Source: the human T2T-CHM13v2.0 reference genome, Homo sapiens. From it: a stretch of DNA of 64,000 nt. Under the pieces are notes generated by a model. That model was not told where the DNA came from and searched no databases. It saw only the letters and a list, made by a program, of their open reading frames with translations. The stretch is taken from NCBI RefSeq assembly GCF_009914755.1, contig NC_060936.1. One strand, written 5' to 3'. The stretch's first letter is position 1. Each line of letters begins with the position of its first letter. Shown here in pieces: positions 1 to 45,764 of this stretch. The position numbers and the translations under genes are program-made.

Positions 1-1040
1 TTAATATTCCCATTTTGTTCATATGTAATTTTCTTAACTTTCTCCATGTCCTTATTTAGTTCTTTGAGCATATTTAAGACAGTTGTTTAAAGTTTTTCTC
101 TAGTAGATCTGCCACCAGGTCTTTTTCAGAAATGGTTTCTGTTGATTTGTTATTTTTTTCTTTAAATGAGCCATACTTTTCTGTTTTTTTGTATGCTTTG
201 TGAGTTTTTTGAAATATTTGCATTTCATAATATGGTAACTTTTGAAATTAGATTTTCCCTCTTCCTAGGGTTTGCTGTTTTCTCTGATTCTTTATTATTT
301 TGATTGTTGTGCCAAGGATCAGCCTGAGATGTAAACTTAAGGCCTTTCAGCTCTTTTCTGAGCCTGTGACTTTCCCCGGTTATGTGTACTTGCCAACTTT
401 TCCCATATGTGCAGTTTTTATTTTTATTTTATTTTTATTATACTTTAAGTTCTGGGATACATGTGCAGAATGTGCAGGTTTGTTACGTAGGTATTCACAT
501 GCCATGGTGGTTTGCTGCACCCATCAACCCATCATCTACATTAGATATTTCTTCTAATGGTATCCCTCCTCTAGCCCTGCACCCCCCAGCAGGCCCCAGT
601 GTGTGATGTTCCCCTCCCTGTGTCCATGTGTTCTCATTGTTCAACTCCTATTTATGAGTGAGAACATGTAGTGTTTGGTTTTCTGTTCCTGTGTTAGTTT
701 GCTGAGAATGATGGTTTCCAGCTTCATCCATATCCCTGCAAAGGACCTGAACTCATCCTTTTTTTTATAGCTGCATAGAATTCCATGGTGTATATGTGCC
801 ACATTTTCTTTATCCATCCTATCATTGATGGACATTTGGGTTGGTTCCAAGTCTTTTATGCAGTTGTTTTGAATGTCCTAGTTTTCAGTGTCTCACTCCC
901 AAAAAAAAGAACAGGAAGTCACAGGCCTTCAATAGACTCTAGAGTTCTAAATAGTTCCACCAGACAAATTCTACCACTGCAGTGTTGTTCAAATGAAGAG
1001 ACAGACTCCTGGTGCTTCCTACTTCATCATCTTCCCAGAA
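1..1040 (-). mobile_element. Ancient L1M-type LINE fragments (interrupted by L1PA at 415-855)
   Basis: T-rich L1 antisense-like composition; ends in 'catcttcccagaa', resembling an L1M 5' end. Confidence 0.45.
415..855 (-). mobile_element. L1PA7-like 3' fragment (5'-truncated)
   Basis: poly-T tail, L1 3'UTR 'ttatactttaagttctgggatacatgtgcag', ORF2 C-terminus [20 protein letters not shown]; degenerate TSD around tgcagtt. Confidence 0.93.
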
Positions 1041-1170
1041 TCTGCTCAGATTATAAGCGTTAATGAAATAAAAAGCAGTTCTCCCAAAGGGATATAATTG
1101 AAGAAGTTTATTCATTCAGTATTTATCATTGGGTACCACCCTAAGTGCTGATGAGATATGAAGTCACAAC

Positions 1171-1620
1171 TGTCGTAGCCAGGGTTCACCCCAAGAGCAG
1201 AGCCTGACAAGATCTCACTGGTAGGGAGCTTTGGGAAATAAGCAGGAGTGGGATTTGGAAATAATATAGGAAAGTGTTATGAGCTGGTTTACCACTGTGG
1301 GCACCTGGAATTCAATTCCATGGGGCCTCTGAGAAGCTGTGTAGGATGCCCCTCAGAACTGCCCCCTTGAGACATGGAAGTGGCGGTATTCAATCTACTG
1401 AATAAGGATTGCCCTTGGGAGTGTTAACTCCCTCAACTTCCAAGTTATGCAAGAAGCAGAATGGCTGAGTGTCTCCAAGCAAAGGCAGATTGCCCATAGT
1501 AGAAAGCAAGAGACAGTGGTGCAGCTGAGATAATGTGCTGTCAGTTTTCATCTGGTGCTTGCCTTGGCCAAGGCTGGACTAAAAAGTGAGCTAAGAGGCT
1601 GTGAGATGAGGACGAAGTAG
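1171..1620. mobile_element. Old MaLR (MLT1-family) LTR
   Basis: 'gggttcaccccaagagcagagcctga' MLT1 end motif. Confidence 0.55.
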
Positions 1621-2112
1621 AGAGTCATAAAACAGCCCGTGTGGTCATGGACCCTATTTAATGAACTCAGACACTAGGCAATTACAAAGAATATAGTGTG
1701 ATAAGTGATAAGGAAATAGAGAGAGTTTATCAGTTAGAATTGGGATACATGCAACAGAAACCCTACAGTAGAGGCTTAACCCAGTGGTTTAAAAATAAAC
1801 CTATTTTTCTCATGTAAAAAGAAGTTCAGAGCGAGGAAGTTTGGCACTCAGGGAAGTCATCCAGTACCAGGCTCCATCCAGCTTCCTGCTCTTCCATCCT
1901 TAGTGTCTGGCTTTCATCTTCATAGTTGGTCTGATTGTGTTCTAGGCAGGAAGACAGGGAAGACAGGCAGAGGACATGTGCCAGCTGAGTCTGTTTTTAT
2001 TAGGAAAAGCATAGCTTTCTTGGAAGCCCATCCAACAGGATTCTGCTTACATATCATTGAGTGTAGTAGCTCACGTGGTCACTCCTGGCTTAAGGGAGTC
2101 TGGAAGATGAAT

Positions 2113-2280
2113 TATTTTTATTTTTTGAGACAGTGTCTTGCTCCCTTGCCCAGGCTGGAGTGCAGTGACACTACTCTAGGTTGCTGCAACCTCAAACTCT
2201 TGGGCTCAAGTGATCCTCCCACCTCAGCCTCCCAAGTTGGGACTAAAAGTATGCACCATCATGCTCAGATAATTTTTTAA
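2113..2280 (-). mobile_element. AluJ right-arm fragment
   Basis: cccaggctggagtgcagtg...ggctcaagtgatcctcccacctcagcc. Confidence 0.9.
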
Positions 2281-2289
2281 TTAATTAAT

Positions 2290-2615
<326 letters not shown>

Positions 2616-2714
2616 TAACTGGACACATCAGACACTGAACAGAATTGGAGTACTAATAGTAAGAAAGACAGCAGAAAGGATTTTGAGTAGGCAACTTACA
2701 GTATCTGCCTCAGA

Positions 2715-4200
2715 AGTCTAAGTGGTATGGGAGCAACAAGGAGGGGCCCAACACCTGAACTAGGGATAAGAGAGGGAGGTCAGAGAAGGTCCTTGAAGGT
2801 AACCCTTAGGTGGATCTTGAAATATGAGCTGTAACTGGCCAGGTAGATAATATGTAAACTTTTGTTGATGTATGGTGGCAGGAGGCAGGAAAGGGAATGG
2901 TTGGAAGAACAATCTAGACATTACGTAGAAGGACATGAAAATATGAAAGATTATAGGACCGAAGAAGAATTTTGGAGAGATACAACAGGCTAGAGAATTG
3001 AGCACAAATAGGTAGTGGTAAGGTACTACTCTGACAGGTGTTATGGGACCAGACTAGACCAGAGACGGCCTTGTATACCATCATAAGGAATATAGATTTT
3101 ATCTGGAAGCCTAATAGGAAGTTTTGAAATATTTTAGGCAGGCAGGTAATGTGATAAGATCTACATTAAAAATCAATCTGAAAAATGTTTGGAGAATGGA
3201 TTGGAAGATATGATGTGGCAATAATCAAGGATTTGCCATAATATAAGGAAAAATGATGTAGGATTAAACTAACAAGGATAGAGAGAAGAGGACAGACTTG
3301 AGAAAAGTTTTGAAGAGAGGTTCGATAGGGCTTGGTGGATAACTGTGTGATATAATTTCTCTAAACCAACAACACTTGAGGGGGAAAAGTAAATTTCCAA
3401 GGTAAGATGATAAATGGACATGCTGAAGTGGAGGCTCCTATGGGTCAGTGAAGCGGTGATATCCAGTAGATAGGGGGAATGCTGGAACTGAAACCTTTGT
3501 AAGAGATTGGAGCTGGAATTCTAGATTAGAGGTCATTGGCATATGGTGGCAATTGAAGTCCTTGGTATGGGCAGGGTCACACAGATGGAGTGAATATAAG
3601 AAAGAGGAGCCTGGAGGGCAGTACTACTGGGCACATTAGCATATGGACATAAGAAGATGAGATTAAAAAAGGGATGGGGAAGGGGAGTGAGAGAGATCCA
3701 AATGACTCTAGGAGAGAGTGATGCATGGAAAGCCATGGATGAGAGAGAGAGACTCAACATATGGTGTAGTGGTGAATAGTATGAGCTTCAGAGTCAGACA
3801 GACCTCATTTCCAGCCCAGGGTCTACCTAATTGTATGACCTATGACAAATGTCCTTATCCTCTCTATGCCTCAGTCTGTTTCCTCATTTTGAAAATGGGG
3901 ATCATAACAGTACCTACTTCAGCACTGTTTTGATAATTAAATGAGATAATGTATAAAAAGTGCTCAGCACTCTGCTTGGTACACAGTTCTCAAAGAGTGG
4001 TAGCTATCACACTAATATGATGAGTGTCTCTTTAAGAGTGGCAGGAGATTCAGACAGATCAGAAGAAGGATGTTGAAAAAAGGCTGGAAAGAATCCATTG
4101 GATTGTGATTCAAGAGGTCAATGGGAATCCTTGATGAGTTTCAATGGCATGGTGGGGACAGAGACAGAATGTGGGTAGGATGGGGGAATTTGAGAGGGGT
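2715..4200 (-). mobile_element. L2 LINE remnants (with MIR inserted at ~3765-4010)
   Basis: Purine-rich L2 antisense motifs, e.g. 'ggccttgtataccat..taaggaat.tagattttat' and 'ccattggatt'. Confidence 0.7.
3765..4010 (+). mobile_element. MIR SINE
   Basis: Core 'gcctcagt..tttcctcattt.gaaaatggggat.ataacagtacctac'. Confidence 0.85.
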
Positions 4201-4534: not shown

Positions 4535-4728
4535 GTGGGCTTTGAAGTCAGACTGCTACATTTAAATCCTGTCTCGACCATTTGCAAACTATGAGATCTT
4601 GGGTAACTAACTTATTTAACCACTCTGTGCCTCATTTTCCTTATTTATAAAATAAGGATAATAGTTCCTGCCTCACATGGTTGTTATCAGGAATACATGA
4701 GCTAATACACACAAGGTACTTAGAATGG
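4535..4728 (+). mobile_element. MIR SINE (continues after 5432)
   Basis: 'ctctgtgcctcattttccttatttataaaataaggataata' core. Confidence 0.8.
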
Positions 4729-11612: not shown

Positions 11613-12139
11613 TCATTCTGGCATTTTTAAGCAAAGTATACAGATCTCAAGTTTGAGTTTTATTTTCACAGTTCTTTAGCACAGCATCCGATTCCATTTG
11701 GTAAGCTCTTGTAAACAGCTGCATTTAATGTAAAGAAGTGGTTTATTTTCCCTTAAGTAGTTATTTGAATTTTCTAAGTTGGGAATAGAATTATTATAGC
11801 AAGCTACTTTTAAGAGGAAAGGGGATTTCACTTTAAAAGTCATCTCTCATTTATGAAGAACAACAAAAGTCAGGGAGAGGCATCATAGGGAAAGCTAATA
11901 TTTCCAAGAGTCTCTATTAACCTTTGGTGTTTTTTCCTGTAACTCTGGAATATTGTTTAAAATTTCCATTGTCATTAATAGAACATTTGATGAAGCTTTA
12001 TTTTATGCTACCATAACTGTCTTTGGAATGAAAGTTTGAATTAACTTAGCATGCTAGCAATGTCCACCACGGGCAGGTGAATAAAACCCCTAATGATATC
12101 AAAGCAGTGTAATTCCCAGATCCAGGCCATCTTTTAAAA

Positions 12140-12355
12140 TAGATGCTTTTTCTGGGGCAAGTATTTTACTAGGTGTTCTATACAGTAACTTTAAATCCTG
12201 CAAAGTGGGTGTTATTATCCCAAGCAAGAGATGAGGAAATTGAAGCTCACAGAGATACAATGATCTATTTAAGGCCACACACCTGGCAAGTGGTGGAGTC
12301 AGAACTTAAAATCAAGTCTGTCTGACATAGAGCCAGTGCTTTTTCCATCATGATG
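12140..12355 (-). mobile_element. MIR SINE
   Basis: 'agatgaggaaattgaagctcacagag' core. Confidence 0.8.
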
Positions 12356-12759
12356 TATCTTATTCTGCCATTCTTCATAATGATCAAGTAAAGGTAGACA
12401 ACAATTATGTGCTTATCTCAGAAAGAAAAAATACCCAAATATCAAGAGGCAAGAATTTAAAGTGAATACAAATCATTTGAATTCATGATTAGATAGAACA
12501 CCATGCATCCAAACCTATGCAAAACATTCTTTAACGAGGGAACTCTCCAAGGCCTGAAATAGACATTCATGTATAAGTGTAGAATTTTCAGACCAGATAG
12601 ATATACTTTTCAGAACCTGGAGCTTCACACTTACGCATGGTTTTGGATTTCTTTGGGTGGGAGAGTACCTTGCAATGGAAAGTAGCAACGTTTACAGAAG
12701 TATAATATTGCAGTTAATCAATAGTTAACACTTGAATATTGTATTCAAACAAGAACAGA

Positions 12760-28269: not shown

Positions 28270-28420
28270 CTTTAAATATTATTATTTTACCAATGCAGAA
28301 TCTGAGGCTCAGGAAGGTTATGTAAAGTGGCCAAGTGAACATCATTGGTGAGAGATGGAGTTGGAGCCGGAGCCCAGACGTGTCTGACTGTAAGGTCTGT
28401 GCCCCTTTACATCACACCTC
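28270..28420 (-). mobile_element. MIR SINE
   Basis: 'attttaccaatgcagaatctgaggctcag' core. Confidence 0.75.
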
Positions 28421-28817
28421 ATGTTGTAGGATCATTTTAAGGTGAGGCTACTTGAAGTCGGGGTTTGGGCTAATTTAGGCTTCTAAGTCTTTTTTACTTT
28501 ATTCTCCAGAAAATATTAAGACCCATCAGGTATTTTAGAGAAAAATCAAGATGTTCTACTTGACATGCTTCTTGTGCTTTGTTATTCTGCTAGTCCGATT
28601 CTGTTGAAGAGCGTATCTAAACCTACCCACACCCACAAATAAGCCCCCATACACAAAACCAAACTTACACACAAATATTATATCCACAAACACTATTTGA
28701 ACTCATTAAGCACAAACCTAATAAAACCCAGGTGACTTCAGGCAACAGCTTTTCCTTAGTAATTACCCTTGTAATTAGTAGTTACACTTGATACCCGATA
28801 ACCTGTGCAATCAAACC

Positions 28818-30015: not shown

Positions 30016-30863
30016 AAACCTTTCTCATTTCAATTCATTATTTTGGTGCCATGTAGACACGGCTATAGTGTAATGGCTAAACATATTTTATGATTAAAAA
30101 TTTTAAAAATTTAGATAGAATTTAATAAATTTTAAATAATCAATTTTAAAGATCATTTAAATAAAACAAAACATTTATATATAGAAATTTTAAATAAAAA
30201 AGTAATGAACCTATCACCGAGATTAATCACATTTAAAGAGTTGGCTAATTTTGTCTTATCTATTACTTTTACTCCACTTTTTTTTTTTGCTACAATATTT
30301 AAAACAAATTCCTAAAATCAAGGTATTTCACCTGTAAATATTTTCTTTTTTTTCCCTTCCAACTTTAATTTTAGGATTGGGGGTACATATGGAGGTTTGT
30401 TACATGTACAAATGTAAATGTAACATTGTAAACATGTATCACTGGGATTTGTTGTATGCGTTATTTCATCACCCAGGTAGTATGCATAGTATCCAATAGG
30501 TAGTTTTTCAACCTTCACCCTCCTCCCACCCTCCACTGTCAAGTAGGCCCTGGTGTCTATTATTCCCTTCTTTGTGTTCATGTGTACTCCATATTTAGTT
30601 TCCACTTATAAGCGAGAACGTGTGGTATTTGGTTTTCTGTTTATGTGTTATAATAATTTGCTTAGGATAATGGCCTCCAGCTGCATCCATATTACCACAA
30701 AGGACATGATTTCATTATTTTTTATGGCTATATATAATAGTATTTCTTGGTGTATATGTACCACTTTTTTTTATTCAATCCACAATTGATGAGCACCTGG
30801 GTTGATTCCATGTCTTTGTGACTATTCACTATTGTGAATGGTGCTGTGATGAACATATGCATG

Positions 30864-33800
30864 TGTATTAGTCCATTTTTACACTGCTATAAAGAACTGC
30901 CGGAGACCTGGGTAATTTATAAATAAAAGAGTTCTAATTGACTCACAGTTATGGATGGCTGGGGAGGCCTCAGGAAATCTACAATCATGGCAGAAGGTGA
31001 AGGGGAAGCAAGGCACATCTTACATAGCGGCAGGAGAGAGAGAGAGCAAGTGGGGAAGTGCCACAAATTTAAACCATCAGATCTCATGAGAACTCCCTAA
31101 CATGAGAATAGCATTGGGGAAATCCACTCCCATGATCCAGTCACCTCCCACCAGGCCCCTCCCTGACACGAGAGGATTACAATTCAACATGAGATTTGGG
31201 TGGGAACACAGAGCCAAACCATGTCATTCTTCCACTGGAGCCTCCCAAATCTCATGTCCTTCTCATATTTCAAAATACAATTATTCAGTCTCAACAGTCC
31301 CCCAGTCTTTTTTTTTTTTTTTTAAATGGAATCACAACTTTAATGAAAACTTGTTTTAAGTAGCTGCCTATTTTGTGCCAGATGTTTTGTCAGGTACTTT
31401 GAATGTCTTTTTAAATTTATTATTTTAACAAACCAGTGAAGTGAGTATTCTTCTTCCCATTTTACAGATAAAGACAGTCTCAGAGAAAGTTTGTGGCTTG
31501 TCATTTACACACCTAGGAACTGTCAGAATCAATTAGAACCCAGGTCAATTTGAAGGTTCTTTCCACTACATCACCCTGCCTCTCACATTTTAGATACTGA
31601 GTAATAAACGTTCAATATTTAAACACAGAAGCATAATACTGCAGACATTAGAGTAAGAAGAGCATTATTTCATATAAATATAACCCTTCTCCTTTAAAGG
31701 AACTCCGAAATTATTCTTAGGTTTGGTAATTTAACATAATCCTATTTTTGATTCTTTTTTCTTTGTCTTTGTAAATTGGGTTAATTCAAAAGCCTTGTTT
31801 TCAAGCTCTGAAGTTCTTTATTCTACTTGTTCAATTCTATTGTTGAAACTTTCCAGTGTATTTTGCATTTCTCTGTGTTTTTCATTTCTAGAAGTTGTGA
31901 TTTTTTAATTTATGATATCTGTTTCTCTGGAGATTTTTTCATTTATATCCTGTATTTTAAAAAATGTCTTTAAGTTGTTTTTCACCTTTCTCTGGTGCCT
32001 CCTTGAGTAGCTTCATAATTGACCTTCTGAATTATTTTTCTGGCAATTCAGAGATTTCTTCTTGGTTTGGATCCATTACTGATGAGCTAGTGTGAACTTT
32101 TGGGGGTGTTATAGAACTTTGTTTTGTCATATTATGAGAATTGTTTTCTGTTCCTTTTCATTTGGGTAGACTATGTCAGAGGAAAGATCTGGACTCAAGG
32201 GTTGCTGTTTAGATTCTTTTGTTCCATGGGGTGATCCCTTGATGTGGTGCCCTCCCCACTTCCCTAGGCTTGGGGCTTCCTAAGAGCTGGGCTAAAGTGA
32301 TTGTTATTGCTCTTCTGGGTGTAGCTACCCAGCAGAACTACCAGGCTCTAGGCTGGTACTGGGGAGTGTCTGCAAGGATTCCTGTGATGTGATCCATCTT
32401 CAGGTCTCTCAGGCATAGATACCAACACCTGCTTTTGTGGAGGTAGCAGGAGAGTGAAGTGGACTCTGTGAGAATCCTTGCTTGTAGTTTTGTTTAGTGC
32501 ACTGGTTTTCTTAAATGCTGGTTATGCTAGCAGTGAAGTTGTTAAGTGGACAGACTCAAGACCTCTGGTTATCCAGGTGGTTGAATTAGCCATTGTTTTC
32601 TCTTTCCTTGGAGTTCAGTTGGTTGGCCTTCTCTTTCCTTGGAGTAGAATTGGTTTCCTAATGACTTGAGTTGGTTGGCTTCCAGCCAGGAGGTGGTGCC
32701 TTCAAAAGAGCATGAGCTGTGGTAGTATAGGGGGGATTCAAGCTTGCCCTAAGGTTGCCTGGATAAGTATTTGGGTTTCTCAGGTGATGGGCAGGGTCTT
32801 AGAGTTCCCTTCAGTTTATGTCTCTTGTTGTTGTTTTGTTATCAGCTACCAGGGTGGGTAGAGAAAGACCATCAGGTAGGGGCAGGGTTAGGTGGGTCTG
32901 AGCTCAGACTGTCCTTGGGTGGGGCTTGCTGTGGCCATTGTTGGGGATGGCGTGGTTCTCATGCCAATGGAGTTATGTTCCAAGGGGGATTATGGCTGCC
33001 TCTGCAGCTTCATACAGGTCCCCAGGATGGTTGGAGAAAGCCGGCAGTGACAGGCCTTACCCAGCTCTCATGCAGCCAGCAAAGCTAATCTCACTCCCGC
33101 TGTACTCTCCCAACAGCCAACAGAGCTGAATTTATATCCAGGTCACCAGTGTGCGGGGCTGAGATCTTGCCCCAGGCTACAAGCCTCCCTGCTGAGAAAG
33201 CAAGCAGGGCTTTCAGTACTTGCTACTCCCTGACTGCCATGGCTTCTGTGCTAATATCTGTACTTCCTGTTTGACCCCTGGCTACTGCCCAGGAAAATTC
33301 ATGCTTTGTCAAAATTATTACAAAGTTCAGCTTAAAGTCTCCTTTTCCCTGTGGCTTTTCCCCAATTCTACTGGCTGCTGTCCCCAGAACCCCCATGAGA
33401 TAAAGTTAGAAATGGCTTCCCTGGAGACCAGGAGTGCCTACATAGCTCTTCCTACTGCTGCTTTTATTTTATATTTTGCTTGGCTCTCTAAATTCATTTC
33501 AGCTCTAGTTAAGGTTAGATCCTTCTCCTGTGATCTGGATTTTCAGGTTCCTCAGGATGTGTGTTCAGAGGCAGACTTTCACCCTCTCACGCTTTGGGCA
33601 CTTGCAGTTTTTTGGCTGTCTCATGGAGTTTGCAGCAGCAAGCTGCTTCTTTGAAAGGGTCTATGAAATTTTTTGTTTTCTTGGTATGTTCCTGCAGTGG
33701 TTCTTGCAGCAATATTTTACATTGTGAGTCTCCACATACTGTCTGTCCATTTGAGTGGGAGCTACATCCATTTGAGTGGGAGCTACAAGTTAGTCCTACC

Positions 33801-35742
33801 TCCTTTCCAGATTTTTTTTCTTCTTTCAGTCTCCCAGTCTTAACTCATTTCAGCATTAACTCAGAAGTTCAAAGTCCAAAGTTTCATCTGAGACAAAGTA
33901 AGCCCCTTCTACCTATGAGCCTGTAAAATCAGAAACGAGTTAGTTACTTTCAAGACACAGTGTGGGTACAGGCATTGGGTAAGTGCTCCCATTCTGAATG
34001 GGAGAAATTGGCCAAAACAAAGGGGCTACAAGCCTCAATGCAAGTTCATAATTTAGCAGGGCAGTCATTAAATCTTAAAGCTTCAAAATAATCTCCTTTG
34101 ACTCCACATCCCACATCCAGGGCACACTGATGCAAGGGGTGGGCTCCCAAGGCCTTGGGCAGCTCCTCCCCTGTGGCTCTACAGGGTACAGCCCCTGTAG
34201 CTGCTTTCACAGGCTGGTGTTGAGTGCCTGCGTCTTATCTAGGTGCATGGTGCAAGCTGTCAGTGGTTCTACTGTTTTGAGGTCTGAAGGACAGTGACCC
34301 TCTTCTCACAGCACCACTAGACAGTGCCCCAGTGGGGTCACTGTGTGGGGGCTCCAACCCCACATTTCTCCTCTGCCCTATGCTGTAGAGGTTCTCCATG
34401 AGGGCTCTGCCCCTGCAGCAGACTTCTGCCTGGACATCCATCTATTTCCATACATGCTTTGAAATCTAGGCGGAGGTTCCCAAACTCTTGCCTTCTGCAT
34501 ACCCACAGGCCCAACACCACATGGAAGCTGCCAAGGCTTGGGGCTTGCACCCTATGAAGCAATGGCCTGAGCTGTACCTTGACACCTTTTAGCCATGGCT
34601 GGAGCTGGAGCAGCTGGGACACAGGGTACCATGTCTCGAGGCTGCAGAGAGCAGCATGGCTCTGGGTCTGGCCCATGAACCCATTTTTCCCTCCTAGGCC
34701 TCCAAGCCTGTGATGGGAGGGGCTGCCACAAAGATCTTAGAAATTCCCTGGAGACATTTTTCTCACTGACTTCACTATTAACAATTGGCTCTTTGTTACA
34801 TATGCAAATTTATATAGCTGTCTTGAATTTCTCCCCAGAAAATGGGTTTTCTTTTCTGCTACAGGGTCAGGCTACACATTTTCCAAACTTTTGTGTTCTG
34901 CTTCCCTCTTAAATATAAGTTCTAATTTCAGACCATCTCTTTCTTCATGTATATGAATGTACACTTTTAGAAACAGCCATGTTACATCTTGAGTGCTTTG
35001 TTGCTTAGAAATTTATTCTGTCAGATACCTTAAATCATGTCTCAAGTTCAAGTTCCACAAATCTCTAGGGCAAGGGCAAAATGCTGCCAGCCTCTTTGCT
35101 AAAGCATAGCAAGAGTGACTTTTACTCCAATTCCCAATAAGTTCCTCATCTCTAGATGAGACCACCTCAGCCTGGACTTTATTGTCCATATCACTATGAA
35201 CATTTTGGTCAAAACCATTCAACAAGTCTCTAGAAGGTTCCAAACTTTCCCACATCTTCCTATCTTCTTCTAAGCCCTCCAAACTGTACAAACCTCTGTC
35301 CATTACCCCATTCCAAAGTCATTTCCACTTTTCAGGTGTCTTTATAGCAGTGGTTCACTCTGCTGGTACCAATTTTCTATATTAACCAATTTTCACACTG
35401 CTATAAAAAGAACTACCTGAAACTAGGTAACTATAAAGAAAAGAGTTCTAACTGACTTACAGTTCCACATAGCTGGGGAGGCCTCAGGAAACTTACAATC
35501 ATGGCAGAAGGTGAAAGGAAAGCAAGGCACATCTTACATGGTGGCAGGAGAGATAGAGTGAGGGGAGAAGTGCCACACTTTTAAACCATCAGATCTTGTG
35601 AGAACTCAGTCAATATCATGAGACCAGCATGGGGGAAATCCACCCCCATGATCTAATCACTCCCATCAAGTCCCTCCCCTGACATGTGAGGGTTAAAATT
35701 TGACATGAGATTTGGGTGGGGACACAGAGCCATACCATATCA
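30864..35742 (-). mobile_element. Complete THE1D-like MaLR provirus (LTRs 30864-31226 and 35378-35742; internal region ~1.6 kb, split by an insertion)
   Basis: Two direct LTRs; 5-bp TSD gcatg (30859-30863 / 35743-35747). Confidence 0.93.
31310..33826 (-). mobile_element. Chimeric retrocopy: L1PB-type 5'UTR + 5' part of ORF1 (33826-31690) joined to a non-L1, MIR-containing 3' segment, ATTAAA and poly(A)
   Basis: TSD cagtc(c/t)cccagtctt at 31295-31309 and 33827-33841; T-run 31308-31323; tttaat at 31339-31344; MIR core at ~31360-31580. Confidence 0.88.
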
Positions 35743-35832
35743 GCATGTACGTATCATTATGTAGTATGATTTATATTCCATTGGGCATATACCTAATAAT
35801 GGGATTGCTAGGTCAAATGGTTATTCTATTTC

Positions 35833-36084
35833 ATTTTTTTATTTTTATTTTTTATTATACTTTGAGTTTTAGGGTACATGTGCACAACGTGCAGGTTTGT
35901 TACATATGTATACATGTGCCATGTTGGTGTGCCACACCCATTAACTCATCATTTAACATTAGGTATATCTCCTAATGCTATCCCTCCCCACTTCCCCCAC
36001 CCCACAACAGGCCCCAGTGTGTGATGTTCCCCTTCCTGTGTCCATGTGTTCTCATTGTTCAATTCCCACCTATGAGTGAGAACA
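35833..36084 (-). mobile_element. L1PA4/5-like 3' fragment
   Basis: Young L1 3'UTR with T tail; no clear TSD. Confidence 0.92.
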
Positions 36085-44519: not shown

Positions 44520-44720
44520 TTTATTGAGCTCTTTTTATGATTGATAATATTATATATTATTAAGTGCTTTAAACATACATTAATTGTTTCAACACTCCTC
44601 TGAAATAAGTATTACTATCTCCATTTTACCGATGGGGTAACTGAGCCTCAGGGAGGTTAAAAACCTCACTCAGGATTCCAGCCAGTGAGTGACAGAACCG
44701 GGTTGAAACCCATGACTTTG
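44520..44720 (-). mobile_element. MIR SINE
   Basis: 'ctccattttaccgatggggtaactgagcctcaggg'. Confidence 0.8.
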
Positions 44721-45764
44721 TGACAGTAATGGCCATAGTCATATCTGTTATGATGTATTGTTGCAAAGTAAGAGAAGTTCCCACACTCCATGAGTGTACC
44801 AGTTCAAAAGATGTAACAAAAATTGTCATTCTGTAATAACATTGACTTACACTTAAAAAAACTATTATGGATTTCAAAACTTTTCAAAGTTCTGGAAGAA
44901 AGACAGTCAGGAACTTTACAAATTATTGGTTTATAGTTCATACATTCAGTCTTCACAAAGTCCTAATTAGGCTTTCAGTATAGGGGACATTTTGAGGAAC
45001 AAGAGATGAGTCACGAGTTTGACCTCCAAAGATCAAGTTGTGGAGGTATCATGTATGATATATTTATGTGTGGAAATAACTTGAAACATCAAACCACAAG
45101 TTGAGCTTTCCTTCTCTTGTGACCATCCACCCATGTATTACCCAAGTCCAGACCCAATGGCAGTTTGCCAAGTGTGAGCCAAAATGAGTGTGGTCCCAGA
45201 AGAACTGGTTCATCTTCCTCTGGTCTGGAGGGGAAATACAAAGCCAGCAGAAGAGGCTTCTTTGAGACAGCAGAGTTCATGGAGTGTTACATTAGACACC
45301 TGGTCCCTTACCCTTTCTCCTTTCTGCAGGGGGTATGGAGGGTACTCGACCTGTTCTCTCTGCAACCCTCACCAGCCCAAGGGGTCCCAGGAGAGTGTTC
45401 CACGGGGTTTAAAGAGTGATTCTAGACATGGGGCTGCACGTATTTCTTGCCAGGAACTCTCACAAAGACTGGGGGCTGACAGTTTTACAGTACAATAGCT
45501 GAGTGGGAAACAACTGTGGAGTGGTGGAGCTGAGAGAGCTGGAGAGAGCGTGTGGCTCCCACCACATGACATGGCAAGGATACCTGACTTTTCTGCAGGC
45601 TCAGAACCACCTTCAGAGTTAGTGGGTCAGTGGCTGGTTTGCAATCCTGTCATTTCCCCCAGGATGTAGAGTCAGCAGGAAGGAAGAGAAAAATGCTGGA
45701 AAACAGATTTGGATGACATTGACTGTGATAGTAATTCCTAAATTAGATTAGAAAACACCACTGG

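What the first reader, a model, noticed from the sequence alone, without database searches (positions are those of the whole stretch)
31295..33841. Non-autonomous 'half-L1' chimeric retrocopy carrying captured MIR-containing DNA, inserted into THE1D
Seen: the THE1D internal sequence breaks at cagtcccccagtctt and resumes at cagtctcccagtctt (15-bp TSD; TT/AAGA-type L1 endonuclease site on the minus strand). Read on the minus strand, the 2.5-kb insert starts at the 5' end of an L1PB-type UTR, runs through about half of ORF1, switches at ~31690 to ~370 bp of non-L1 DNA containing a MIR, then has ATTAAA 15 nt before a poly(A). It has no ORF2 and no L1 3'UTR. Established: MIR activity long predates THE1, so the MIR could not have jumped here by itself; normal L1 copies lose the 5' end, not the 3' end. 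Inference: a transcript driven by the promoter of a 3'-truncated L1 elsewhere read into flanking DNA and was retrotransposed in trans. It would carry its own internal promoter, like a HAL1-style non-autonomous element, and could belong to an unnamed family.
Basis: partly seen in the sequence, partly recalled or inferred. Interest (0 to 1): 0.85.

Follow-up and report, generated by a model that had tools for sequence, protein, structure and literature searches.

The report
One-off L1–host RNA chimeric retrocopy
This is an ancient, dead jumping-gene insertion whose front part is the start of an L1 element and whose tail was copied from an unrelated spot on chromosome 2; it is a single curiosity, not a new family of elements.

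Summary
A 2,517-bp insert (31310-33826, minus strand) sits in a full-length THE1-type element. It is flanked by a 15-bp target-site duplication (14/15 identical), and 7 of 7 uninterrupted paralogues carry that target once. It ends in ATTAAA, 15 nt, then A14, at a TT/AAGA site. The insert starts at the L1 family's canonical 5' end. It runs through a ~1.7-kb 5'UTR and the N-terminal part of ORF1, stopping 9 residues into the RNA-binding domain. It then switches to 370 nt of non-L1 DNA.

That tail has exactly one other copy in T2T-CHM13: chr2:190,596,427-190,596,788 (+), 90.8% identical, with no poly(A). No L1 abuts that site, and no L1 5'UTR/ORF1 lies within 100 kb upstream. No other locus shares the junction, so there is no family and no extant fusion source.

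The L1 and chr2 sequences share an imperfect ~20-nt microhomology (17/21) across the junction, and 17 of 18 L1 copies lack a GT at the break. My best reading is a reverse-transcriptase template switch from a polyadenylated chr2 RNA onto L1 RNA (about 0.5). The rivals are a lost DNA-level fusion allele (0.2) and splicing (0.1). It is not HAL1-like, because ORF1 is truncated and there is one copy. Interest is low to moderate.

The parts
30868..31226 (-). LTR of the host THE1-type element. It is the 3' LTR if the element is on the minus strand, as read.
   Evidence: 83% identical to a second copy at 35389-35742. The THE1 name comes from recall of the LTR termini. Subfamily D was not testable.
31227..31294 (-). 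THE1-type internal sequence, left of the insertion
   Evidence: Aligns with 7 of 7 paralogous copies.
31295..31309 (.). Left copy of the 15-bp target-site duplication
   Evidence: The target is present once in 7 of 7 uninterrupted paralogues.
31310..31323 (-). Poly(A) tail (14 A on the minus strand)
   Evidence: It is absent at the chr2 source, which has a T-rich run there instead.
31324..31693 (-). 370-nt tail copied from chr2:190,596,427-190,596,788 (+). It contains ATTAAA (31344..31339) and a MIR-like ancient repeat (about 31353-31616).
   Evidence: This is the only non-self genomic match: 2 of 2 candidates scored. 326/359 identical, K2P 0.098. Dispersed-repeat status.
31694..31697 (-). Four junction bases (ttaa on the minus strand) assignable to neither parent. 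They lie inside the L1/source microhomology.
   Evidence: Both L1 copies and the source have a single G here.
31698..32130 (-). Decayed N-terminal part of L1 ORF1 (N-terminal region plus coiled coil). It ends 9 residues into the RBD domain.
   Evidence: Translations. Relatives continue into PF02994 and PF17490. This copy lacks ~27-36 nt relative to the 18 aligned copies.
32131..33826 (-). L1 5'UTR (~1.7 kb), starting at the family's canonical 5' end
33746..33787 (-). 21-bp tandem duplication private to this copy, near the 5' end of the 5'UTR
   Evidence: It is absent in the 29 aligned copies.
33827..33841 (.). Right copy of the target-site duplication
33842..35388 (-). Remainder of the THE1-type internal sequence
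   Evidence: Colinear with paralogues at 78-83% identity.
35389..35742 (-). Second LTR of the host THE1-type element

Best explanation
What it is (about 0.95): a single, ancient L1-mediated retrocopy of two unrelated RNAs joined head to tail. The 5' part is an old primate L1 from its true 5' end through the 5'UTR and the N-terminal 433 nt of ORF1. The 3' part is the last 370 nt of a polyadenylated transcript from chr2:190.596 Mb (T2T). It is one insertion, not a family. It is long dead, with stops and frameshifts throughout.

How the joint arose (about 0.5, inferred):
1. L1 ORF2p nicked the THE1 target at TCTT/AA.
2. It primed on the poly(A) of the chr2 RNA and copied 370 nt.
3. The nascent cDNA end then re-annealed to L1 RNA at an imperfect ~20-nt microhomology in ORF1.
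4. Reverse transcription ran on to the L1 cap site.

In short, a template switch, possibly intramolecular if the RNA was an L1 read-through transcript. The insertion was then closed with a 15-bp TSD.

Shown: the TPRT hallmarks, the two origins, the single copy number, and the microhomology. Inferred: that the chr2 segment was an RNA 3' end, and that the joint was made by the reverse transcriptase.
For: - TSD, poly(A), ATTAAA spacing and TT/AAGA site. Empty-site paralogues, 7 of 7.
- The tail has one other genomic copy, on chr2. It is 90.8% identical, and homology stops at the poly(A) addition point. In the source this point is followed by a T-rich stretch, as expected downstream of a cleavage site.
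- The L1 part reaches the family's 5' end in register with 29 copies, as expected if RT ran to the end of the second template.
- No L1 abuts the source. There were no BLASTN hits of the insert to 100 kb upstream at E<=1e-5.
- No genomic L1 is as close to the L1 part as the source is to the tail. The best is 79-81% over >=1.4 kb, among the 40 scored of 3,443 candidates.
- Junction microhomology: L1 (as in copy L005) GGTGTTCCTGAGGAAGAAGAG against source GGTGTACTGAGGAGAAGGG, 17 matches. An in-register null reached this score in 1 of 195,149 random pairs, though I chose the window post hoc. A looser test, any local alignment in 40x40-nt windows, gave 0.012 for that copy.
- 17 of 18 aligned L1 copies have no GT right after the last L1 base.
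- Template switching and chimeras flanked by one TSD are documented (passages of PMC2104539; PMC4476161). So is template switching at an internal position of the acceptor RNA, as for U5 (PMC4476161).
Against: - Across the 10 in-register L1 copies the looser microhomology test ranges from 0.002 to 0.90. The strict test used a window chosen after seeing the match.
- The shared heptamer is not intact in the window: 4 bases stand where both parents have one G. A 2-nt insertion lies 9 nt upstream.
- Doucet et al. state that template-switch chimeras seem largely restricted to U6/U6atac as the second template, with L1 or a trans-mobilised mRNA as the first. L1 RNA as the acceptor is therefore not the usual case.
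- The present-day source has ATTCAA where the retrocopy has ATTAAA, and I have no transcript evidence for that poly(A) site.
- A microhomology-mediated DNA deletion would leave the same joint.
- The source has AG dinucleotides at two positions compatible with a splice acceptor.
Confidence: 0.5

Rival explanations
1. At some locus a 3'-truncated L1 came to abut the MIR-bearing chr2 DNA, for example by a microhomology-mediated deletion next to a polymorphic L1 on chr2. Its promoter drove a transcript that was polyadenylated at the chr2 site and retrotransposed in trans. The fusion allele was later lost.
For: The intact L1 5' end and promoter region. The microhomology would also fit end-joining at the DNA level. 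Progenitor L1s are often not retained, and none is identifiable here.
Against: No locus in T2T-CHM13 shares the junction. The chr2 source has unrelated DNA directly upstream, and no L1 5'UTR/ORF1 lies within 100 kb. The only nearby L1 is an older, 5'-truncated ORF2 fragment 1.8-5.5 kb upstream. The model needs an insertion, a deletion and an allele loss, none of which is observed.
Confidence: 0.2
2. Splicing. An L1 sense transcript was spliced, in cis or in trans, from a cryptic donor in ORF1 (ATTG|GTGTTC) to an acceptor at the chr2 segment (..TCTAG|GTGTAC..). The spliced RNA was then retrotransposed in trans.
For: Under this reading both sites obey GT-AG. Law and Burns propose splicing and trans-splicing for mRNA/L1 chimeras (abstract and passages).
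Against: The window keeps TTCCT after GG.GT, as L1 does, where the source has TACT. So both discriminating positions favour L1 continuing past that donor. Beyond TTCCT, 17 of 18 L1 copies have no GT. The stretch before the acceptor AG is not pyrimidine-rich (read; not scored). The ~20-nt L1/source similarity would be an unexplained coincidence. No sense L1 of this kind lies within 100 kb upstream for cis-splicing.
Confidence: 0.1
3. Two separate events, or a later rearrangement. For example, a full-length L1 carrying a 3' transduction inserted, and the interior was deleted afterwards on chr12. Alternatively the tail and the L1 piece arrived independently.
For: A microhomology-mediated deletion after integration would give the same joint.
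Against: One TSD pair brackets the whole insert and the target is single in paralogues. An L1 5' piece has no 3' end with which to insert alone. A transduction needs a progenitor L1 a few kb upstream of the chr2 segment, and none is there.
Confidence: 0.05
4. The tail is simply part of an L1 or THE1 consensus, for example an old L1 3'UTR. The insert would then be an internally deleted L1.
For: None found.
Against: A repeat consensus would have many copies, but the tail-only search found 2 candidates in the whole genome. The adjacent L1 part gave 832 to 3,443 candidates with the same tool. About 260 nt of the tail belong to a different, much older dispersed repeat.
Confidence: 0.01

Closest known systems
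Bipartite chimeric retrogenes / U6-L1 type chimeras made by L1 template switching (Buzdin et al. 2002/2003, known to me only through citations; Gogvadze 2007 PMC2104539; Doucet 2015 PMC4476161)
   Same: Two unrelated RNA copies are fused in the same orientation. One TSD pair flanks the whole. There is a poly(A) at the 3' end and an L1 endonuclease-type target. The 5' partner is complete at its own 5' end, and the 3' partner is a 5'-truncated RNA 3' end.
   Different: The polarity of the partners differs. Here a host RNA is the 3' (first-copied) part and L1 itself is the 5' (second) template, entered internally in ORF1. The described cases mostly have L1, or a trans-mobilised mRNA, at the 3' end and U6 or other small RNAs at the 5' end.
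mRNA/LINE-1 and other '3'-LINE-1 chimeras' (Law and Burns 2025, bioRxiv 10.1101/2025.02.02.635956; outline, abstract and passages seen)
   Same: L1 recombined with a host transcript and inserted as one TSD-flanked unit.
   Different: Their census looks for sequence arriving 5' of an L1 (section titles and passages). Here the host sequence is 3' of the L1 piece, so such a screen would not see it. I could not read their supplementary tables.
HAL1 (half-L1) non-autonomous elements (Kojima 2018 PMC5753468 and Hancks and Kazazian 2016 PMC4859970, passages; Bao and Jurka 2010 not held)
   Same: L1 5' region with ORF1 sequence and no ORF2.
   Different: HAL1 'encodes only ORF1p' and forms families. 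Here ORF1 stops 9 residues into its RNA-binding domain, and there is a single copy.
L1 3' transduction and orphan transduction
   Same: Non-L1 flanking DNA ending at a downstream poly(A) site is carried to a new locus.
   Different: No L1 3' end precedes the captured DNA, and no progenitor L1 lies upstream of the source.
3'-truncated L1/SVA insertions by premature polyadenylation, and composite elements that gained new 3' domains, such as LAVA and PVA (Hancks and Kazazian 2016, passage)
   Same: A retrotransposed RNA that keeps the element's 5' end but ends in a different 3' end.
   Different: The poly(A) signal here lies in foreign DNA from another chromosome rather than inside L1. There was no amplification.

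Membership tests
L1-mediated (TPRT) insertion | Target-site duplication flanking the insert | tested here: met
   15 bp, 14/15 identical. The target is single in 7 of 7 uninterrupted paralogues.
L1-mediated (TPRT) insertion | 3' poly(A) tail preceded by a poly(A) signal | tested here: met
   A14 at 31310-31323. ATTAAA lies 15 nt upstream.
L1-mediated (TPRT) insertion | Endonuclease-type target (TTTT/AA-like) | tested here: met
   TT/AAGA on the insert's strand, which is TCTT/AA on the nicked strand.
Bipartite chimeric retrogene (template-switch type) | Two parts from different genomic sources, same orientation, directly fused inside one TSD pair | tested here: met
   The L1 part has many copies. 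The tail has a unique chr2 source. There is one TSD pair.
Bipartite chimeric retrogene (template-switch type) | 5' part complete at its own 5' end | tested here: met
   It starts in register with 29 other full-length copies. Two of them, L030 and L031, share flanks.
Bipartite chimeric retrogene (template-switch type) | 3' part is the 3' end of a polyadenylated RNA | tested here: inconclusive
   Homology to chr2 ends at the poly(A) addition point, and a T-rich stretch follows in the source. However, the present source reads ATTCAA, and no transcript data are available.
Bipartite chimeric retrogene (template-switch type) | Usual partner arrangement (small RNA or mRNA 5' part, L1/Alu/mRNA 3' part) | tested here: not met
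   L1 is the 5' part here. Compare the passages.
HAL1 | Encodes a complete ORF1p and no ORF2p | tested here: not met
   ORF1 ends 9 residues into PF02994, and PF17490 is absent. Pfam finds no L1 domain in the window's own frames.
HAL1 | Multi-copy family sharing the same structure | tested here: not met
   The junction and tail are found nowhere else except the unfused chr2 source.
L1 3' transduction | Complete L1 3' end followed by flanking DNA of a progenitor L1 | tested here: not met
   There is no ORF2 or 3'UTR in the insert. No progenitor lies upstream of the source.
Spliced L1 chimeric transcript retrocopy | GT at the L1 break and AG before the captured segment | tested here: inconclusive
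   AG is present in the source. At the most parsimonious break, 17 of 18 L1 copies lack GT. An alternative break 9 nt upstream would fit GT-AG, but it contradicts two discriminating bases.
MIR (tail repeat) | Ancient dispersed ~260-bp repeat | tested here: met
   Iterative nhmmer converged on 13 hits, 11 of them besides the tail and its source. The first single-sequence pass found only 1. The family name is recalled, not tested.
THE1D (host element) | LTR-internal-LTR structure of a ~2.3-kb MaLR element | tested here: met
   LTRs at 30868-31226 and 35389-35742 are 83% identical, and the internal part is colinear with paralogues. The subfamily letter is not testable with these tools.

The most novel reading that the evidence does not exclude
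The locus is a fossil of a 'reverse-polarity' L1 chimera. ORF2p primed on a host poly(A) RNA in trans, then jumped by microhomology onto L1 RNA and copied it to the cap. This gave an L1 promoter and 5' region a foreign 3' end. Current censuses look only for foreign sequence 5' of L1, so a whole class of such chimeras may be uncatalogued. They would be the raw material from which HAL1-, SVA- or LAVA-like non-autonomous elements start.
Probability: 0.25. Interest if true: 0.5.

Novelty: new variant of a known kind. Interest (0 to 1): 0.3.

Why it matters
This is a clean, fully resolved example of an L1 chimera in the unusual orientation, with the L1 5' end joined to a host RNA 3' end. Both parents are identified and the junction lies in a microhomology. 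It shows that screens which look only upstream of L1 copies would miss such events, and it gives a concrete template for a genome-wide search. The locus itself has no sign of function and did not found a family, so its value is as a mechanistic footprint only.

Tried and rejected
- Extra copies or a family: none. The junction query gave 832 candidates, 40 scored, and none spans the junction. The tail-only query gave 2 of 2, self and chr2.
- A progenitor L1 near the source: none. BLASTN of the whole insert against chr2:190,496,427-190,596,426 gave 0 hits.
- A progenitor L1 anywhere: no copy stands out.
- Pfam on the window's own ORF1 frames, with X at stops: only sub-threshold coiled-coil noise. 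The N-terminal ORF of relative L011 also gets no L1 Pfam hit. The ORF1 assignment therefore rests on colinearity with relatives that run into PF02994 and PF17490.
- MIR check: plain BLASTN found only two weak hits, and single-sequence nhmmer found one. Only iteration gave a family. After iteration the E-values are inflated, because training sequences match by construction.
- Rfam scan of 30500-36000: 0 matches at E<=0.1.
- Bacterial promoter/terminator scan: at shuffle expectation and irrelevant here.
- RNA fold of the source around the switch point: z = -2.33, with 5 of 200 shuffles folding as well. A stem-loop is formed by the first ~45 nt of the captured segment. This is suggestive of structure near the switch but not decisive.
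- Buzdin 2003 and Bao and Jurka 2010: not held.
- Literature searches turned up no description of a 5'-L1/3'-host chimera. These were only four keyword searches of open-access text, so that is no proof of absence.


Full report
**The observation**

- The 15-mer cagtcccccagtctt (31295-31309) recurs as cagtctcccagtctt (33827-33841).
- Between the two copies lie 2,517 bp. Read on the minus strand, these end in ATTAAA (31344..31339), 15 nt, then 14 A (31323..31310).
- The minus-strand flank reads ..gagtt | aagactggg.., a TT/AAGA target.

To test whether the repeat is a true target-site duplication, I fetched other genomic copies of the host element (3,790 first-look candidates, 40 scored, 7 non-self loci kept).
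- In 7 of 7 the two flanks are contiguous and the target occurs once.
- The host is a complete LTR-internal-LTR element. Its LTRs are at 30868-31226 and 35389-35742 and are 83% identical.
- The host itself sits inside an older L1.
- 'THE1' is my recall of the LTR termini. The subfamily letter cannot be tested here.

**The L1 part**

- Window 33766->31698 is colinear with full-length L1 copies elsewhere (3,443 first-look candidates, 40 scored). 13 scored places span essentially the whole 2,069-nt query at 73-80% identity.
- The first 400 nt align with 29 fetched copies. Their mutual similarity begins within a few bases of the same position, and their upstream flanks are unrelated. So the insert starts at the family's own 5' end.
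- This copy has a private 21-bp tandem duplication at 33746-33787.
- ORF1 begins at ATG 32130-32128. It is riddled with stops and frameshifts and lacks ~27-36 nt present in 18 aligned relatives.
- ORF1 ends at ..DYVKLPNLRII/GVP. In better-preserved relatives (L013, L014) this motif opens the Pfam L1 RBD domain PF02994, which is followed by PF17490. The insert keeps only 9 residues of the first domain and none of the second.
- Pfam finds no L1 domain in the window's own frames. It also finds none in the N-terminal ORF of relative L011. The ORF1 call therefore rests on colinearity.
- The label 'L1PB' is untested.

**The tail**

- A query across the junction found many L1 copies for the L1 side. 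It found exactly one place for the other side: G000:C2:190596426-190596788 (+), i.e. chr2 of the same T2T assembly.
- The tail alone has 2 candidates in the whole genome, itself and that chr2 site.
- The pair is 326/359 identical (90.8%), with K2P 0.098 and 7 gap events. This corresponds to roughly 22-49 My for rates of 2.2 to 1.0e-9 per site per year.
- Homology begins at AGGAGAAGGG. It ends at ..GTGATTCCA, where the retrocopy has its poly(A) and the source continues into a T-rich run.
- The source reads ATTCAA where the retrocopy reads ATTAAA. Which is ancestral cannot be decided here.
- About 260 nt of the tail (31353-31616) belong to an ancient dispersed repeat. Single-sequence searches barely saw it. 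Iterated nhmmer over 288 kb of held DNA converged on 11 further loci. I take it to be MIR by recall.
- This refutes the idea that the tail is part of an L1 or THE1 consensus.

**The source neighbourhood**

- Directly upstream of the chr2 segment is unrelated unique DNA.
- BLASTN of the whole insert against the 100 kb upstream gives no hit beyond the tail's own source.
- The only nearby L1 is an older, plus-strand ORF2 fragment without 5'UTR or ORF1, at chr2:190,590,939-190,594,648.
- A TGF-beta-domain exon lies at chr2:190,546,624-190,546,908 on the minus strand. By recall this is MSTN, and the source would then sit in an intron of C2orf88 on its sense strand. This was not verified.

**The junction**

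The minus strand of the window reads ..aataatttcggagttcct ttaa aggagaagggtt... L1 copies read ..AATAATTGGTGTTCCTGAGGAAGAAGAG.. (this exact form is in L005). The source reads ..TCTAGGTGTACTGAGGAGAAGGGCC...

The two parents therefore resemble each other over about 20 nt across the break: 17 matches, 2 mismatches, 2 one-base gaps.
- In an in-register test against random 21-mer/19-mer pairs from the same loci, 1 of 195,149 reached that score. I chose the window after seeing the match, so the true significance is weaker.
- In a looser test (any local alignment in 40x40-nt windows) the value is 0.012 for the majority-type copy. It ranges from 0.002 to 0.90 over the 10 copies extracted in register. 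The other 8 of 18 were mis-registered by an indel and are uninformative.
- The window keeps TTCCT as L1 does, against TACT in the source, so L1 runs at least to 31698.
- Right after that point 17 of 18 L1 copies have no GT.
- Four bases (31697-31694) match neither parent.

**Mechanism**

- The TPRT hallmarks and the two separate origins are shown.
- A joint lying in a microhomology, with no canonical donor at the parsimonious break and no L1 at or near the source, is best explained by a reverse-transcriptase template switch. RT would start on the poly(A) of the chr2 RNA, jump to L1 RNA inside ORF1 and run to the L1 5' end.
- Such switches, chimeras inside one TSD pair and mosaic LINEs are described in PMC2104539 (passages) and PMC4476161 (passages). 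PMC4476161 also reports entry at internal positions of the second template, for U5.
- Against this, Doucet et al. note that validated switches are mostly onto U6/U6atac.
So would a jump within an L1 read-through RNA from a lost chr2 L1.
- Splicing fits only if the break is placed 9 nt upstream, against two discriminating bases, and it leaves the microhomology as a coincidence.
- I put template switching at about 0.5, a lost fusion allele at 0.2, splicing at 0.1, and two events or a later rearrangement at 0.05.

**Comparison with known systems**

- It works like a Buzdin-type bipartite chimeric retrogene but with the partners reversed. L1 is the 5', second-copied part.
- It is not HAL1. HAL1 'encodes only ORF1p' and forms families (Kojima 2018, passage; Hancks and Kazazian 2016, passages). 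This copy has a truncated ORF1 and is unique.
- It is not a 3' transduction, because there is no L1 3' end and no progenitor.
- Law and Burns (2025; outline, abstract and passages) catalogue '3'-LINE-1 chimeras', meaning foreign sequence 5' of L1. This locus has the opposite layout.
- My four literature searches found no description of this layout. Buzdin 2003 and Bao and Jurka 2010 were not held, so it may be in print.

**Verdict**

- It is a one-off, decayed chimeric retrocopy: a new variant of a known kind, with no evidence of function or amplification.
- Interest is 0.3. It is useful mainly as a well-resolved footprint and as a search image for an under-catalogued chimera layout.

Noticed in passing
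window 30565-30866 and 35751-35832: The THE1-type element itself interrupts an older L1. The two flanks map to adjacent positions of the large L1 at 51-62 kb of the window. A short direct repeat (GCATG) lies at both THE1 ends. This gives three layers of nesting: old L1 <- THE1 <- L1 chimera.
   Followed up: partly
window 33746-33787: A 21-bp tandem duplication near the 5' end of the L1 5'UTR, private to this copy (absent in the 29 aligned copies).
   Followed up: partly
window 12133-12394, 44553-44735, 3759-3946, 4546-4701, 28275-28428: Five further copies of the same ancient MIR-like repeat as in the tail, found by iterated nhmmer.
   Followed up: no
G000:C2:190590939-190594648 (loci L053/L054): A plus-strand, 5'-truncated and 3'-clipped older L1 ORF2 fragment (~74% identical to the window's L1s), 1.8-5.5 kb upstream of the tail's source. 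It has no 5'UTR or ORF1, so it is not the donor.
   Followed up: yes
G000:C2:190546624-190546908 (-): A TGF-beta-domain exon about 50 kb from the source segment. By recall this is MSTN, which would put the source in the MSTN/C2orf88 neighbourhood. The gene names were not verified.
   Followed up: partly
L030 (C20:66158510-66158853) and L031 (C12:48491-48834): Two full-length L1 5' ends with identical upstream flanks. They are probably one insertion copied by a subtelomeric segmental duplication between chr20 and chr12.
   Followed up: no
L002:1499-1543 (chr2 source): The first ~45 nt of the captured segment fold into a stem-loop whose purine-rich 5' arm is the junction microhomology. For the 180-nt region z = -2.33, and 5 of 200 shuffles fold as well.
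   Followed up: partly
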